Source: Zootoca vivipara
Taxonomy: Eukaryota
Length of the DNA stretch: 64,000 nucleotides
Assembly (NCBI RefSeq): GCF_963506605.1
Contig: NC_083277.1
Span: forward strand, 54,312,001-54,376,000
Direction of reading: 5' to 3'
Made by a program: the position numbers. Positions 51,401 to 59,400 of this stretch are shown one piece after another. Numbering within the stretch: position 1 is the first letter of the stretch; each line of letters begins with the position of its first letter.

Positions 51401-54400
51401 CAGGATCACACTTCAAAATGACCTTAACAGATTAGACAACTGGGCCAAAGCAAACAAGATGAATTTTAACAAGGAGAAATGTAAGGTACTACACTTGGGC
51501 AAAAAAACGAAAGGCACAAATACAGGATGGGTGACACCCGACTTGAGAGCAGTACATGTGAAAAGGACCTAGGAGTCTTGGTAGACCACAGACTTGACAT
51601 GAGTCAGCAGTGTGATGCAGCAGCTAAAAAAGCCAATGCAATTCTGGGCTGCATCAATAGGAGTATAGCATCTAGATCTAGGGAAGTAATAGTACCACTG
51701 TATTCTGCTCTGGTCAGACCTCACCTGGAGTACTGTGTCCAGTTCTGGGCACCACAGTTCAAGAAGGATACTGACAAGCTGGAACGTGTCCAGAAGAGGG
51801 CAACCAAAATGGTCAAAGGCCTGGAAACGATGCCTTATGAGGAACGGCTTAGGGAGCTGGGTATGTTTAGCCTGGAGAAGAGAAGGTTAAGGGGTGATAT
51901 GATAGCCATGTTTAAATATATGAAAGGATGTCATATAGAGGAGGGAGAAAGATTGTTTTCTGCTGCTCCAGAGAAGCGGATACGGAGCAATGGATTCAAA
52001 CTTCAAGAAAGAAGATTCCACCTAAACATTAGGAAGAACTTCCTGACAGTAAGAGCTGTTTGGCAGTGGAATTTGCTACCAAGGAGTGTGGTGGAGTCTC
52101 CTTCTTTGGAGGTCTTTAAGCAGAGGCTTGACAGCCATATGTCAAGAATGCTTTGATGGTGTTTCCTGCTTGGCAGGGGGTTGGACTGGATGGCCCTTGT
52201 GGTCTCTTCCAACTCTATGATTCTATGATTCTATGATTCTGTTGTTTGCTTCCTGCATCCAAATAAGCTCTGCTGTTAGTTTTGGACTGTTTACCCATCA
52301 CATAGGTGGTCTTTCAAAACTGTAGGGTCACCATACTAACACTGCTTTATTCCATTGGCCTGAATCGTCTCTGGCCACATGACTAGTCCGCTTTAGCTTC
52401 ACAGCCTTTTCCATTACAACCACAACTTTCAGTCTTTGTTTTGCCCTCCTAACATCGTGAGTCCCATGGCATGTTGTCCATGTTTCTTTGTGTGTCCAGT
52501 TCTTCATAACACATCACAGCTAATATGCACATACTGAACACTTTAGCTTTTGAGTCTAAAGAAATATTTTTATTTTTCATTTGATTCTTCGTTCAGTTAT
52601 TCCAGCATTTCTTGGAGTTCTTGTAGACTTTTCATTATTACAAGCAAAACACCTGCATATCATAGAAAATTTAAATATCTTAACACAGATTCCCCCCTTT
52701 TTTTACCACTCCAGCTTTTAACACACCTTCCGAGGTGAATGTAAATAGCTTAGGTGAGTGTAGTTTAGGTGATAAAGCTAACTTCTTAAAGGTATTGGGG
52801 TGGGTCTTTACATGGAGATGATATGTTGCTGTTGCCTTATTTGCTATTTTCATGCAATAGCTGTCAATTCTGCAGTTTTGTATCACTCATTGTACAGCCC
52901 AGGTTTTGACTGTATCGAAGGCTCTCTCTTTTCGAAATAGATGAATCCAGCGTAAATAGGGATATTATATCCATTACATTTCCCTAACAATATTTTCATA
53001 GTTAATAGATGATCTGCTGTCACCTTAAGTCTACTTAATCCTTAGCGGCAATTACAGGAATGCAAATAAGGAATGGATATAGTTACCACTGTGCTTTGTC
53101 AGGGACCCATATTTACATTTCACTTTCGGTAAATAGTTGTAAACAAACATAAGTGCTTTTTAAGCAGGTGTGGTGAACCTCCAGGTATTGCTGAATTACA
53201 GCTCCCATCACCCCTGAACAATGATAGTTGATGGGATCTGTAACTCAGGAACATCTGAAGGCTATGGGTTTCTCCTTCCGGCACAAAAGAATAAAAAAAA
53301 GCCTATCATAATCTGAAAGATAAACACATCAGTTACCTAGATTTCTATGTACGCTTACCTAAGAATAAGCTCATATAACATAATAGGATTAACTTTCAAG
53401 TAGACATATTCAATGAATGGTGGGTGATAAAAATTGAAAATAAATAAATTGAGTTGGACTGTGTCTGTTGACTCAGTATAAGATCTTGGCATGAACATCA
53501 TCCTTGAGCACTGTAAATTTCTTTACTCAAGATGACAAGTATTGAGGTCCTTTGGGGAAAAACTAAAAAGAAGAAATGAAAGCATTTGACAGTATGAAAA
53601 GCTTGTTTCACATTTTGTGTGTCCTATGGGTGGCGGGTGGCGCTGTGGTCTAAACCACAGAGCCTAGGGCTTGCCAATCAGAAGGTCAGTGGTTCGAATC
53701 CCTGTGACGGGGTGAGCTCCCGTTGCTTGGTCCCAGCTCCTGCCAACCTAGCAGTTCGAAAGCACGTCAAAGTGCAAGTAGATAAATAGGTACCGCTACA
53801 GTGGGAAGGTAAACGGCATTTCTGTGCGCTGCTCTGGTTCGCCAGAAGCGGCTTTGTCATGCTGGCCACACGACCTGGAAGCTGTCTGCGGACAAACACC
53901 AGCTCTCTTGGCCAATAAAGTGAGATGAGCACCGGAACCCAAGAGTCGTCCACAATTGGACAGTGCAGGGTTGAGGTTGAATTAAGCATCAATAGGCATT
54001 CAGCATATTCAGTAAGTCAGCTGAGAACTGGCCACCAAAATATATGCTTCCGTAGTTCAACTATACACTACTCCAAATAAGTAGAAATGTTCCTGGTAAA
54101 GCTTAAGAAAGTAAACTAGTGTTTTAACACAGGCCTCTGAGCTAACTCTGCTACTATGACTGCCCCATGCTGGTTTCTAGCTTGTCTCGTCCATTGTGCA
54201 TCTTTTCATGAAGAAGAAACCATGTTTTTGGGGAGCATGTGAGGAGGTGAGCAGCTAGGAACTAGGAAGGTAAACTGCACTGACAAGGGCTGTACAAGTT
54301 TTTGGTTTGGGGCATGAGAATTTGCTGATGATCTGGGAGCAAATATAAGAATTGGCTGTGAAGTTCCTGGAAACCAAAGTGAGGGGGAGCTGAGGGTAAG

Positions 54401-56445: not shown

Positions 56446-59400
56446 TCAAGCAAACCTCAAATTTAACCTGACCCTCAATAGCTCATCCACCTAAGAGAGA
56501 ACTTTATCCAGCTAGCACTGGCTGACTGAATGATTCAATTACCCTGTGAATCTCGATCACTTTGTCATAGCATGGCATTTTAAACAAACTAATACTCTAC
56601 ATCTTTGAAATGATGCATAAGTAACAACACTGGGTCACTGTTTTCAAACTGTGTTTAATGCAAACTCACAACTATGGACCTTTAGGTTTTTGACTATTAG
56701 GATACCAACAAATTGTTTTTGTAATACAGACATTGCAGCAATTGACACATATGAAAAGAAGAAACAGATGAAATGCTTGTATAGTCGTGATAATTCTATG
56801 TATTGCTTTGGACTTTAAAAAATAAATTTTTTAGCAAATGCTATGCCCACCTACTATGTCCTTAACTTTTTATCTGCCTTCTGCTGCTAGCAGCTGCTCC
56901 CCCTTATAATACCCCTCCCCCCTTCTCTGCCTACACTTCTGTTCCATCGAGCTCCAACCACATTTCAGCAACAGTGGCATACTCCCGCATGTGACTCTAC
57001 ATCATATTCAACTGTACAAGATCCTATCAACATATATGTAAGCATGTTGTATACTTGGGGATAGCCTTTGCTGTTGTCCACAATTCTGAATAATCAGTAT
57101 GCTTGAGCAGGGACTTTTAGATAGTACTAACTTTTTGCTTTTGGTAAAAATTGGGCCACCTATGAGCAAATAGTGAAGGAGATGGATAACCAATGAAAAT
57201 TAAAACCTTATGGGGGAGTTGAAGGTTTTGTGAATGATTGGTTGCATTATCGTCAAATTAACGAAATGTTTAAAGATTATAAAAAGAAAAATAGATTTGG
57301 AAATACAAAATCGAGATTTGAATTAACTGTTAAATAACAAAGTTAAAGTATTATCCAAAATGTATAAATTATTACTGGAGTGGCATTTTAAAGATGAAGA
57401 AGTTAAATCAGTTATGATACACTGGGCTAAAGATATTGGTCATAATATACAATTAGAAGATTGGGGAGAAAATATGGAAAGAGGGAATAAATTTCACTTC
57501 CTGCAGTGCTTTAAAGGAAAATATAATGAAAATGATGTGCAGAGATTTACAAGCATGATAAAAGATTGTGTTTATATGCAACAACTGCAGCAAGAATACT
57601 ATTAGCCCAGCGATGGAAGCAAGAAGAACTACCAACAAAATAAGAGTGGCAGATGAAACTGATGGACTATGTTGAGTTGGTGAAATTAACTGGGAAAATT
57701 CAGAACCAGCAAGACCAGACTTTCCTGAAAGATTGGAAGAAATTTATGATATATTTGAAAAACAATTGTAATCAATTGACATCGCTTGCAGGGTTGCAAG
57801 AAGTTTTGTAAACAGAATTATATGAGTTATTGCGAAAAAGGACAAAGAAGGAGTTTATTTAGGATTTGGATAACTATTAAAATAAAAAAACAAAATCAGA
57901 AAGAAAGTTGGAAAACTATTAGTCAAGGTTGACATAAGTCCTAGGCTGTGATAGCCAAAGGTTTGTTATATTGTATAAGATGGGATGTTATGTTTGGAAA
58001 ACATGTATAAAAACCTATCTGTCTATGAATGAGTATAGATGCATTAAAAAAAATAATTGTGACAGAAGGGAAATCACACAAGGGAAGAAATGCATAGTTC
58101 GGATGTAGCATACAACCTTTACATCTTGATAAATGCTCCCCCTTTGTACACTATATCTGAAGCACAAAAAAGTAGAAGAAGCACATGGCATTTGTGCGGC
58201 TTTCTGTCAGCGATTCTAATGATGTCTGAACTGCCCCTTTGGAGCGAGGGTAAGCAAGCCAGCTAACATCTTCCAAATGTGCTTTATAGAGGCGGTTTAT
58301 TCCTTGTTTCAACAGCAGTACTTCCAGCTCCTGCCATTCTTTAAGTGAGCAGTAAAATCTGGGCCACAAAAGGAGTTGTCTATGGCTAACTTTCTTATTC
58401 ACATAGACACCAAATTGGAGCAGCATTCCTGATACACAGGCCCGGCTCTAGGTAGACCCCCGGTGGCGCAGGGCACCATGGTGCCGGCCCGCCAGAAAGG
58501 CGCCGCGAGCTGCGCCCGCCCGCTGGCCGGACGATCCGCCGGTCCGTCGCGCAGCTTCGCCTGTGGGAGCCGCGCTGCGCCCACCCGCCCACTGCGCTGG
58601 GAAACGGGGCGGGAGGGCGCCGGAGAGATCGCGCTGTGCCTGCCCGCCCGCCGCTGCGCCCACCCGCCCACCGCGCTGGGAAACGGGGCGGGAGGGCGCC
58701 GGAGAGATCCAGCGCGCACCACAGCGGCAGGGGCGTTTAAGACGGCCCTGCTGATACATACAAAGTTGTGTGACAGGAAGCCCTTATATATAGTTAGTAT
58801 CAACACCACTACCCCAGATAAAAGCATTATGGAAATTGGTAGTTTGATACACAGTTCATTTGCATAGTTCCCAATGCTTTAAAAAGTATGCCGCTGATCT
58901 GCTACCACACTCTTCATTTGAACTCAACAACTGGCTGGTAAACGACTACCTATACAGCAATCTGCAAGAACCCGGAAATATGCCTTCTTCCCAAATCATT
59001 GCCTTTCTGGGGGTTGTAATCGACATGGCCCTCTGTGGGTTCATCTCCAATGGCTTTATTATTGCAATGATGGCTGTTGAATGGGCTAAATGCAGGACCC
59101 TCGCTGCCAAGGAACAACTTCTTCTGTCCATGGGGATGTCCAATATCTGTGTCACAGTTCTGTTGACTCCAGCATCAATCATTTACAACTTAAAGTTGGA
59201 GTTCAACCGCATAATGATGCGAATGATTTATGTCTTTGCAACCTGTGTCATATTCTTCCGATATTGGCTCCTTGCCTGGCTCTGCGTCTTCTATTGCATC
59301 AAGATAGTGAACGGCACCCACTCCCTCTTCCTTTGGTGCAAGCTGAGGATATCACGCCTGGTGCCCTGGCTTCTTGTGGGATCTCTATTCATCTCCTTGC

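What the first reader, a model, noticed from the sequence alone, without database searches (positions are those of the whole stretch)
54392..58970. Duplicated TAS2R promoters are identical while coding and 3' regions have diverged: likely promoter gene conversion
Seen: I found no difference between 54392-55116 and 58246-58970 (~725 bp), even across the CpG-dense MITE, which should mutate fastest. The 933-bp ORFs differ at ~23 sites and the 3' flanks have many substitutions and indels. Inference: a recent conversion tract or unequal crossover homogenised the promoter and may have carried the MITE from one copy to the other. This would couple regulation while receptor sequence diverges.
Basis: partly seen in the sequence, partly recalled or inferred. 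Interest (0 to 1): 0.68.

Follow-up and report, generated by a model that had tools for sequence, protein, structure and literature searches.

The report
Gene conversion upstream of duplicated taste receptors
Two neighbouring copies of a lizard bitter-taste receptor gene differ by about 2.4% everywhere except in the 725 bases just upstream of the coding sequence, which are letter-for-letter identical, most likely because one copy recently overwrote the other there, a well-known process in tandem gene families.

Summary
Window 54392-55116 and 58246-58970 are identical at 725 of 725 positions. They open the two units of a 3,854-bp head-to-tail duplication, 54392-58245 and 58246-62300. The rest of the units differs by 75 substitutions in 3,120 aligned columns (2.40%) and 10 indel events.

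A 725-bp run without differences is not expected by chance. None of 200,000 permutations reached it, the union bound is 1.7e-6, and the next longest run is 256 bp.

The window is lizard DNA, not human. The best protein match is a Podarcis muralis TAS2R at 81% identity. Both 310-aa ORFs are intact TAS2Rs and diverge at the neutral rate (dN/dS 1.10, dS 0.023).

The block holds a 314-bp GC-rich hAT-like element with an 8-bp target-site duplication. A paralogue has the empty site. The block also holds an upstream motif shared by all five TAS2R genes of the window.

Recent interlocus gene conversion is the best explanation (about 0.7). The block starts exactly at the duplication boundary, so the tract's left end cannot be resolved. 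Assembly homogenisation cannot be excluded. Coupled regulation is not supported: older paralogues show no upstream homogenisation. This is a clean example of a known phenomenon.

The parts
54392..58245 (+). Tandem duplication unit, copy 1 (3,854 bp): upstream block, TAS2R ORF and 2.2-kb 3' flank
   Evidence: Self-BLAST gives 97.6% identity over 3,656 columns.
58246..62300 (+). Tandem duplication unit, copy 2 (4,055 bp; longer mainly through a 187-bp insertion)
   Evidence: The copy 1|copy 2 junction is at 58245|58246. GGAGC lies at both breakpoints, offset by one T.
54392..55116 (+). Identical block, copy 1 (725 bp): from the start of the unit to 10 bp before the ATG
   Evidence: 725 of 725 positions identical to 58246-58970. 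0 of 200,000 permutations gave a run this long.
58246..58970 (+). Identical block, copy 2. This is all but the last 9 bp of the native upstream sequence that copy 2 kept.
54583..54896 (.). 314-bp GC-rich hAT-like non-autonomous element in copy 1. GC is 77%, with 46 CpG (observed/expected 0.98). It holds an internal ~79-bp tandem repeat.
   Evidence: Flanked by a perfect 8-bp duplication CTGATACA at 54575-54582 and 54897-54904. The termini are CAGGCCCG... and ...CGGCCCTG. Paralogue 45845-45875 has the uninterrupted site. Composition is and the internal repeat.
58437..58750 (.). The same element in copy 2, with the same target-site duplication (58429-58436 and 58751-58758)
55005..55018 (+). Conserved upstream motif TTTGCATAGTTCCC (with the preceding A it holds the octamer ATTTGCAT), 121 bp before the ATG of copy 1
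   Evidence: All 5 matches in the window lie 121-131 bp upstream of the five intact TAS2R ORFs; 0.05 are expected by chance. The octamer was checked.
58859..58872 (+). The same motif upstream of copy 2
55126..56058 (+). TAS2R ORF, copy 1 (310 aa, intact, single exon)
   Evidence: ORF. Pfam PF05296, E = 1.2e-49, residues 1-300 on profile positions 1-301 of 303.
58980..59912 (+). TAS2R ORF, copy 2 (310 aa, intact). It differs from copy 1 at 23 nucleotides and 17 residues.
61891..62077 (.). Insertion present only in copy 2: an expanded (CTAT)n plus a palindromic element of about 150 bp (61930-62079)
   Evidence: 187-bp gap in the alignment. Relatives lie at 43492-43631 and 10014-10149, and it matches its own reverse complement at 84.8%.

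Best explanation
A 3.85-kb segment was duplicated head to tail. It held a single-exon TAS2R gene, about 735 bp of its upstream region and 2.2 kb of its 3' flank. The two units then drifted apart to 2.4%.

Much later, one or a few interlocus (non-allelic) gene-conversion events copied the first 725 bp or less of one unit onto the other. The likely route is repair of a DNA break in one unit using the misaligned other unit as template. This erased the 17-29 differences expected there.

The tract ends on the right between 55116 and 55117. On the left it reaches the edge of the homology or stops within a few tens of bases of it. The hAT-like element and the conserved upstream motif simply lie inside the tract.

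What is shown: the identity, its statistical excess, the structure of the duplication, the nature of the insert, and neutral divergence elsewhere. What is inferred: conversion as the mechanism, its recency, and any effect on expression.
For: - The block is identical at 725 of 725 positions, against 75 substitutions in 3,120 columns (2.40%) and 10 indels in the rest of the unit.
- No permutation of 200,000 gave a run of 725 or more, and the bound is 1.7e-6.
- Divergence outside the block is roughly even: CDS 2.47%, 3' flank 1.82%, 2.43% and 4.19%. The longest run outside the block, 256 bp, has P = 0.053.
- Synonymous divergence in the CDS (0.023) matches the flank. The 2.4% is therefore the neutral level, and the block is the exception.
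- The 95% upper bound on divergence in the block is 0.41%, or 17% of the level outside. The event is therefore recent relative to the duplication.
- The non-element parts of the block are homologous to the upstream regions of three older paralogues. The block is thus original gene-associated sequence that belonged to the duplicated unit, not a later addition.
- Copy number is two, with unrelated flanks on both sides. That fits conversion, which leaves copy number unchanged.
- Gene conversion among clustered TAS2R genes has been proposed for vertebrates (PMC11798467, passages seen). Conversion of promoters of more than 500 bp was proposed for mouse V1R chemoreceptor genes (PMC1955453, passages seen).
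Against: - The block starts exactly at the edge of the duplicated unit. Standard conversion needs homology on both sides of the break, so a tract reaching within about 40 bp of the edge is a coincidence that needs explaining.
- There is no outgroup or population DNA. The defining phylogenetic test (paralogues alike in the tract, orthologues alike outside it) was not possible.
- Only one assembly was seen. Homogenisation during assembly or polishing of a very GC-rich stretch cannot be excluded.
- GENECONV on lizard Tas2r coding sequences found no conversion events (PMC5564386, passage seen). That study looked at coding sequence only, and in two other lizards.
Confidence: 0.7

Rival explanations
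1. Assembly or polishing artefact. The two upstream blocks really differ, but reads from one were used to build or correct the consensus of the other, so the differences were lost.
For: The centre of the block is 314 bp at 77% GC with an internal repeat. Many sequencing chemistries cover such sequence poorly. Only one assembly was available.
Against: - The identity also covers 411 bp of ordinary composition on both sides of the element, where 8.4 differences are expected (P = 2.3e-4).
- The identity stops cleanly at 55117, and the next 3.1 kb is resolved into 85 differences.
- At 2.4% divergence, reads of a few kb place unambiguously.
- The window has no N and no gap.
Confidence: 0.1
2. The two parts of the unit have different histories through rearrangement rather than conversion. 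One route is an unequal crossover that made a hybrid middle unit in a three-unit array, followed by loss of a unit. Another is a later copy-and-paste of the upstream block in front of the second gene by template switching.
For: The identical block begins exactly at the unit boundary. A junction-forming event would produce that naturally. GGAGC lies at both breakpoints, so the locus has undergone a join between sequences sharing only a few bases.
Against: - Only two units are present and both outer flanks are unrelated to the unit.
- Each crossover route needs two or more precisely placed events (reasoned, not computed).
- The block is ancestral upstream sequence shared with older paralogues. 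The original duplication would have carried it anyway.
Confidence: 0.07
3. The duplication itself is very recent, which is why the block is identical. The 2.4% elsewhere has another source. Either the rest of one unit was overwritten from a third, unseen paralogue, or the duplication joined two diverged alleles of a single-copy gene.
For: Lizard TAS2R repertoires are large and clustered (PMC5564386, passages seen), so unseen close paralogues are possible. The two proteins are absent from the protein collection, so the search cannot speak to further close copies.
Against: - No third copy closer than 78% nucleotide identity lies in the 64-kb window.
- No protein closer than 81% was found.
- A 3.1-kb tract ending exactly at the 3' edge of the unit would be needed.
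- Copy 2 has gained a transposon and microsatellite changes, which points to age.
- Allelic divergence of 2.4% over 3 kb would be very high (recalled general knowledge, not tested).
Confidence: 0.06
4. Purifying selection on a regulatory region has kept every one of the 725 bases unchanged in both copies since the duplication.
For: A 14-bp motif in the block is conserved upstream of all five TAS2R genes of the window.
Against: - Among the older paralogues the same upstream region is no better conserved (66.5-73.9%) than third codon positions (66.3-73.2%).
- 314 bp of the block is a transposon insertion absent from those paralogues.
- Its 46 CpGs would be expected to change fastest.
Confidence: 0.02

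Closest known systems
Human fetal globin genes (G-gamma/A-gamma): conversion of the 5' part of a 5-kb tandem duplication
   Same: Both are tandem duplicates a few kb long. The 5' portion of each unit, including the upstream region, is nearly identical on one chromosome, while the 3' portion keeps the older divergence. Interlocus gene conversion explains the globin case.
   Different: In the globin case the tract runs into the gene and ends at a simple-sequence repeat in intron 2 (recalled). Here the tract stops 10 bp before the ATG with no repeat at the boundary. The coding sequence is untouched.
Mouse V1R vomeronasal receptor promoters (PMC1955453; passages seen)
   Same: Both are chemosensory GPCR families in clusters. 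Promoter regions of more than 500 bp are unusually alike between paralogues but not between orthologues. The authors propose homogenisation by gene conversion.
   Different: That is a family-wide statistical pattern with mapped transcription starts. Here it is one pair only. The older paralogues of the window show no excess upstream similarity, and no transcription start is known.
Arabidopsis halleri HMA4 tandem triplication: mosaic divergence through interlocus gene conversion (bioRxiv 10.1101/2025.10.29.685298; abstract and passages seen)
   Same: Recent tandem paralogues whose divergence varies along the unit because conversion acts unevenly.
   Different: In that case conversion is reported for the coding sequences. 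Here the upstream block is homogenised and the coding sequence is not.
Non-allelic gene conversion among clustered vertebrate TAS2R genes (PMC11798467; passages seen)
   Same: The gene family and the tandem arrangement are the same, and conversion is proposed as a force shaping the family.
   Different: That proposal rests on coding-sequence phylogenies. A GENECONV test on lizard Tas2r coding sequences found none (PMC5564386). The tract here lies wholly outside the coding sequence, so such surveys would miss it.

Membership tests
Interlocus (non-allelic) gene conversion tract | A fragment between paralogues that is significantly longer without differences than the surrounding divergence allows (Sawyer-type test) | tested here: met
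   The run is 725 bp. 0 of 200,000 permutations reached it, the bound is 1.7e-6, and the next longest run is 256 bp.
Interlocus (non-allelic) gene conversion tract | Diverged homologous sequence on both sides of the tract | tested here: not met
   The right side is diverged from 55117 onward. The left side has no homologous sequence, because the block starts at the unit boundary 54392/58246. One side only is met, so a crossover or junction-forming origin is not excluded.
Interlocus (non-allelic) gene conversion tract | Copy number unchanged | tested here: met
   Two units with unrelated outer flanks.
Interlocus (non-allelic) gene conversion tract | Tree conflict: paralogues group together inside the tract, and orthologues group together outside it | not testable with these tools
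TAS2R bitter taste receptor | Full-length match to the TAS2R profile in an intact single-exon ORF | tested here: met
   PF05296, E = 1.2e-49 and 1e-49, residues 1-300 on profile positions 1-301 of 303. The closest named proteins are lizard TAS2Rs.
TAS2R bitter taste receptor | Expression in taste cells and response to bitter compounds | not testable with these tools
   No expression or ligand data are available.
hAT-type non-autonomous DNA transposon (MITE) | 8-bp target-site duplication, with an uninterrupted site in a homologous sequence | tested here: met
   CTGATACA lies on both sides in both copies. Paralogue 45845-45875 reads through with a single CTGATTCA.
hAT-type non-autonomous DNA transposon (MITE) | Terminal inverted repeats | tested here: inconclusive
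   Both ends start with CAGG, then the match is imperfect: about 9 of the first 13 bases, read by eye. The repeat finder reported no terminal inverted repeat.
hAT-type non-autonomous DNA transposon (MITE) | Many dispersed copies in the genome | tested here: inconclusive
   No copies were found in the 64-kb window outside the two units. The rest of the genome could not be searched.
Promoter | Mapped transcription start or transcript evidence | not testable with these tools
   Indirect evidence only: a conserved 14-bp motif at -121 to -131 of all five TAS2R ORFs.

The most novel reading that the evidence does not exclude
The homogenisation is not a chance one-off. On this reading the CpG-island-like hAT element inserted between the distal and proximal conserved upstream sequences. 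It then became part of the working promoter, a break-prone site, or both. Conversion spread it to the sister gene, or keeps it identical there.

The result would be two bitter receptors, whose proteins are free to diverge (dN/dS 1.1, with more derived changes in copy 2), driven by one shared transposon-bearing regulatory module. This would be a TAS2R counterpart of the promoter homogenisation proposed for V1R genes.
Probability: 0.1. Interest if true: 0.55.

Novelty: new member of a known kind. Interest (0 to 1): 0.3.

Why it matters
Surveys of TAS2R evolution, including the one GENECONV test on lizards (PMC5564386), look at coding sequence only. This pair shows that conversion can act on the upstream region and leave the receptor untouched, so such surveys would miss it.

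If the block is the promoter, two receptors differing at 17 of 310 residues would be expressed alike. That is a simple way to widen the range of compounds a taste cell detects.

The effect is modest. Mosaic divergence through conversion is textbook biology. This is one pair in one assembly, and there is no evidence that selection shaped it.

Tried and rejected
- Rfam (0 matches at gathering score) and ARAGORN (0 genes) on 53500-63000. The identical block and the insertions are not known RNA genes or tRNA-derived elements.
- ORFs inside the GC-rich element (142 aa and 129 aa). I took them as by-products of GC richness and did not follow them up.
- Search for other copies of the 314-bp element in the window. 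None were found beyond the two units, so the element could not be dated from a family consensus.
- Search for a simple repeat or other feature at the right end of the tract (55117). None was found.
- Homology of the left flank 53950-54391 to the older paralogues. BLAST found none. MAFFT suggests about 20 similar bases just left of 54392 (by eye).
- The element as a recombination hotspot of the CpG-island type. This idea is weakened because lizards other than Anolis carry a complete PRDM9 (PMC5519329, passages seen), which in other animals directs breaks away from promoters (recalled).
- Donor for the cluster of 11 substitutions at 55534-55662. None of the three paralogues of the window matches the derived states consistently (by eye). 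The clustering is only marginal (P = 0.03).
- Direction of conversion. It cannot be told, because both blocks are identical.
- Not used: structure prediction, complex prediction, protein atlas and the genome-contig scan. None bears on a non-coding identity between vertebrate duplicates.
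Full report
**What the window is**

The window holds no N. The two 933-bp ORFs at 55126-56058 and 58980-59912 match the Pfam TAS2R profile over their whole length (PF05296, E about 1e-49). Of 116 database relatives, the closest is a Podarcis muralis TAS2R at 81% identity. Next come Rhineura floridana (64%) and other lizards at 58% or less.

I therefore take the contig for a lizard of the lacertid kind, not human.

Three more intact TAS2R ORFs lie at 36606-37523, 38946-39842 and 46114-47013. They are 50-57% identical in protein to the pair. 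The finding sits at the end of a TAS2R cluster.

**The observation**

- 54392-55116 equals 58246-58970 at 725 of 725 positions.
- Self-comparison shows one head-to-tail duplication: 54386-58026 against 58241-61886 at 97.6% over 3,656 columns, then 58031-58242 against 62078-62297.
- Global alignment with flanks puts the units at 54392-58245 and 58246-62300. To the left of 54392/58246 and to the right of 58245/62300 the sequences are unrelated.
- Outside the block the units differ by 75 substitutions in 3,120 ungapped columns (2.40%; 41 transitions and 34 transversions) and 10 indel events.
- By segment: 1 substitution in the 9 bp before the ATG; 23 in the 933-bp ORF (2.47%); 17, 25 and 9 in three stretches of the 3' flank (1.82%, 2.43%, 4.19%).

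**Is it more than chance?**

There are 85 difference events over 3,845 columns.

- The chance that a pre-specified 725 columns are free of them is 1.9e-8.
- For the longest run anywhere, 0 of 200,000 permutations reached 725. The median was 213, the largest 649, and the union bound 1.7e-6.
- The remainder of the unit looks homogeneous. Its longest run, 256 bp, has P = 0.053.
- CpG-site columns outside the block differ at 13 of 78, against 62 of 3,042 for other columns. That is an 8.2-fold excess.
- Applied to the block's 98 CpG-site columns and 627 others, these rates predict about 29 differences.
- Without the GC-rich element, the remaining 411 bp predict 8.4 differences (P of none = 2.3e-4).
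- The 95% upper bound on divergence in the block is 0.41%, or 17% of the level outside.

**What the block contains**

*A transposon insertion.* Positions 54583-54896 (314 bp, 77% GC, 46 CpG, observed/expected 0.98) are flanked by a perfect 8-bp duplication, CTGATACA. The element begins and ends with CAGG...CCTG. The upstream region of the paralogue at 46 kb runs straight through the site with a single CTGATTCA.

An 8-bp duplication and CAG termini are what I recall of hAT elements. The inverted termini are imperfect, and I found no other copy in the window. 'hAT-like MITE' is therefore likely but not proven. The element holds an internal tandem repeat of about 79 bp.

*Ancestral upstream sequence.* The 191 bp before the element and the 229 bp after it are homologous to the upstream regions of the three older paralogues. 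The block is therefore original upstream sequence of this gene lineage, split by the insertion.

*A conserved motif.* The 14-bp motif TTTGCATRGTTCCC occurs five times in the window. Each occurrence lies 121-131 bp before one of the five intact TAS2R start codons, and 0.05 are expected by chance. In four of the five, the motif with its preceding A forms the octamer ATTTGCAT. That this is the binding site of POU-domain factors is my recollection, not a result.

This is the only evidence that the block is regulatory. There are no transcript data.

**The rest of the units**

- The coding sequences differ at 17 of 310 residues.
- Nei-Gojobori counts are 18 non-synonymous and 5 synonymous changes. 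dN is 0.0257, dS is 0.0233, and dN/dS is 1.10, which is not different from neutrality.
- Synonymous divergence equals flank divergence, so 2.4% is the neutral distance between the units.
- I polarised the changes by eye against the Podarcis and Rhineura proteins and the window's paralogues. About 10 of the 17 replacements are derived in copy 2 and 3-4 in copy 1. The rest are ambiguous.
- Copy 2 has since gained a palindromic element of about 150 bp, with relatives at 43492-43631 and 10014-10149, next to an expanded (CTAT)n.
- The (TCTT)n in the 3' flank differs in length between the units, 15.5 against 17.5 repeats.

The duplication is therefore old enough to have collected a transposon, microsatellite changes and 85 differences. 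The block has collected none.

**Mechanism**

The simplest account is interlocus gene conversion. A break in the upstream region of one unit was repaired from the misaligned other unit, overwriting up to 725 bp. Copy number stayed at two and the outer flanks are untouched, as conversion predicts.

One feature deserves caution. The identity starts exactly at the edge of the unit. At 2.4% divergence a marker is expected about every 40 bp. The tract must therefore reach to within a few tens of bases of the end of homology. That is possible if heteroduplex ran to the edge, but it is not what a randomly placed tract would do.

It leaves room for rearrangement-based histories, which I put at about 0.07. 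Both breakpoints carry GGAGC, offset by one T. This suggests the original duplication arose by a join at near-microhomology, not by recombination between repeats.

Other rivals:
- assembly homogenisation, 0.1
- a very recent duplication whose other parts were replaced from an unseen donor or captured two alleles, 0.06
- pure constraint, 0.02

**Does it 'couple regulation'?**

Nothing here shows that. Among the four older lineages, upstream identity (66.5-73.9%) is the same as CDS identity (68.8-73.6%) and third-position identity (66.3-73.2%). Upstream regions in this family normally drift at the neutral rate apart from short motifs, and they are not kept alike.

The tract's position may be chance. 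I considered the CpG-rich element as a break hotspot. Lizards other than Anolis have a complete PRDM9 (PMC5519329, passages seen), which weakens that idea.

Whether conversion carried the element into the second unit, or the element was there before the duplication, cannot be decided from one haplotype.

**Comparison with what is known**

- Conversion among clustered TAS2R genes has been proposed from coding-sequence trees (PMC11798467, passages seen).
- A GENECONV test on anole and gecko Tas2r coding sequences found none (PMC5564386, passages seen).
- Homogenisation of promoters of more than 500 bp by conversion was proposed for mouse V1R genes (PMC1955453, passages seen).
- Mosaic divergence in tandem paralogues is modelled for A. 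halleri HMA4 (bioRxiv 10.1101/2025.10.29.685298, abstract and passages seen).
- The classic case of a 5' part of a tandem unit being converted is the human gamma-globin pair (recalled, not read here).
- My searches listed no report of a conversion confined to the upstream region of TAS2R genes. Those were three keyword searches of an open-access library, and I could not see supplementary files.

This is a new example of a known kind.

**What stayed unchecked**

Orthologous loci, other haplotypes, further copies of the unit and other copies of the element could not be examined.
- Raw reads were not available.
- The two proteins have no match of 82% identity or more in the protein collection, whereas three other paralogues of the window are listed there. 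That search says nothing about a third close copy.

**Verdict**

Recent gene conversion is the best explanation (0.7). The regulatory reading is unproven. Interest is 0.3.

Noticed in passing
window 36476-36489, 38815-38828, 45990-46003, 55005-55018, 58859-58872: The 14-bp motif TTTGCATRGTTCCC occurs five times in 64 kb. Each occurrence is on the + strand, 121-131 bp before one of the five intact TAS2R start codons (0.05 expected). In four of the five it forms the octamer ATTTGCAT. It is a candidate shared cis-element of this TAS2R cluster. Its link to POU-domain factors is recalled, not tested.
   Followed up: partly
window 61875-62079: Copy 2 alone carries an expanded (CTAT)n and a palindromic element of about 150 bp. 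Relatives lie at 43492-43631 and 10014-10149, and it matches its own reverse complement at 84.8%. It is a true short palindromic MITE family of this genome, inserted after the duplication.
   Followed up: partly
window 55534-55662 / 59388-59516 (codons 137-179): 11 of the 75 substitutions between the units fall in 129 bp of the coding sequence (scan P = 0.03). They change residues 137, 140, 151, 154, 158, 169 and 179. No paralogue of the window looks like a donor (by eye). The cause could be diversifying selection on that part of the receptor, or chance.
   Followed up: partly
window 55126-56058 vs 58980-59912: Replacement changes look lopsided. About 10 of 17 are derived in copy 2, 3-4 in copy 1, and the rest are ambiguous. 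They were polarised by eye against Podarcis, Rhineura and the window's paralogues. This is not significant on its own.
   Followed up: partly
window 54392-58245 vs 58246-62300: CpG-site columns differ 8.2 times as often as other columns between the units: 13 of 78 against 62 of 3,042. The window's CpG observed/expected ratio is 0.33. The genome is therefore CpG-depleted, while the 314-bp element stands at 0.98. It is either very young or unmethylated in the germ line.
   Followed up: partly
window 55126-56058 and 58980-59912: Neither protein of the pair has a match of 82% identity or more in the 5.8-billion-protein collection. Three other TAS2R paralogues of the window appear there with '-' as their source. 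The pair may be unannotated in the source record.
   Followed up: no
window 748-1281, 2896-3108, 25268-25432, 50018-50430, 51527-52241: There are several copies, 92-99% alike and in both orientations, of a retrotransposon 3' end. One holds a 209-aa ORF that has no Pfam match. That it looks like the C-terminal part of a CR1-type LINE reverse transcriptase is my reading, not a test.
   Followed up: no
window 54386-54392, 58241-58246, 62296-62301: GGAGC lies just inside both breakpoints of the duplication, offset by a single T on the left side. This points to a join at near-microhomology rather than recombination between repeats.
   Followed up: partly
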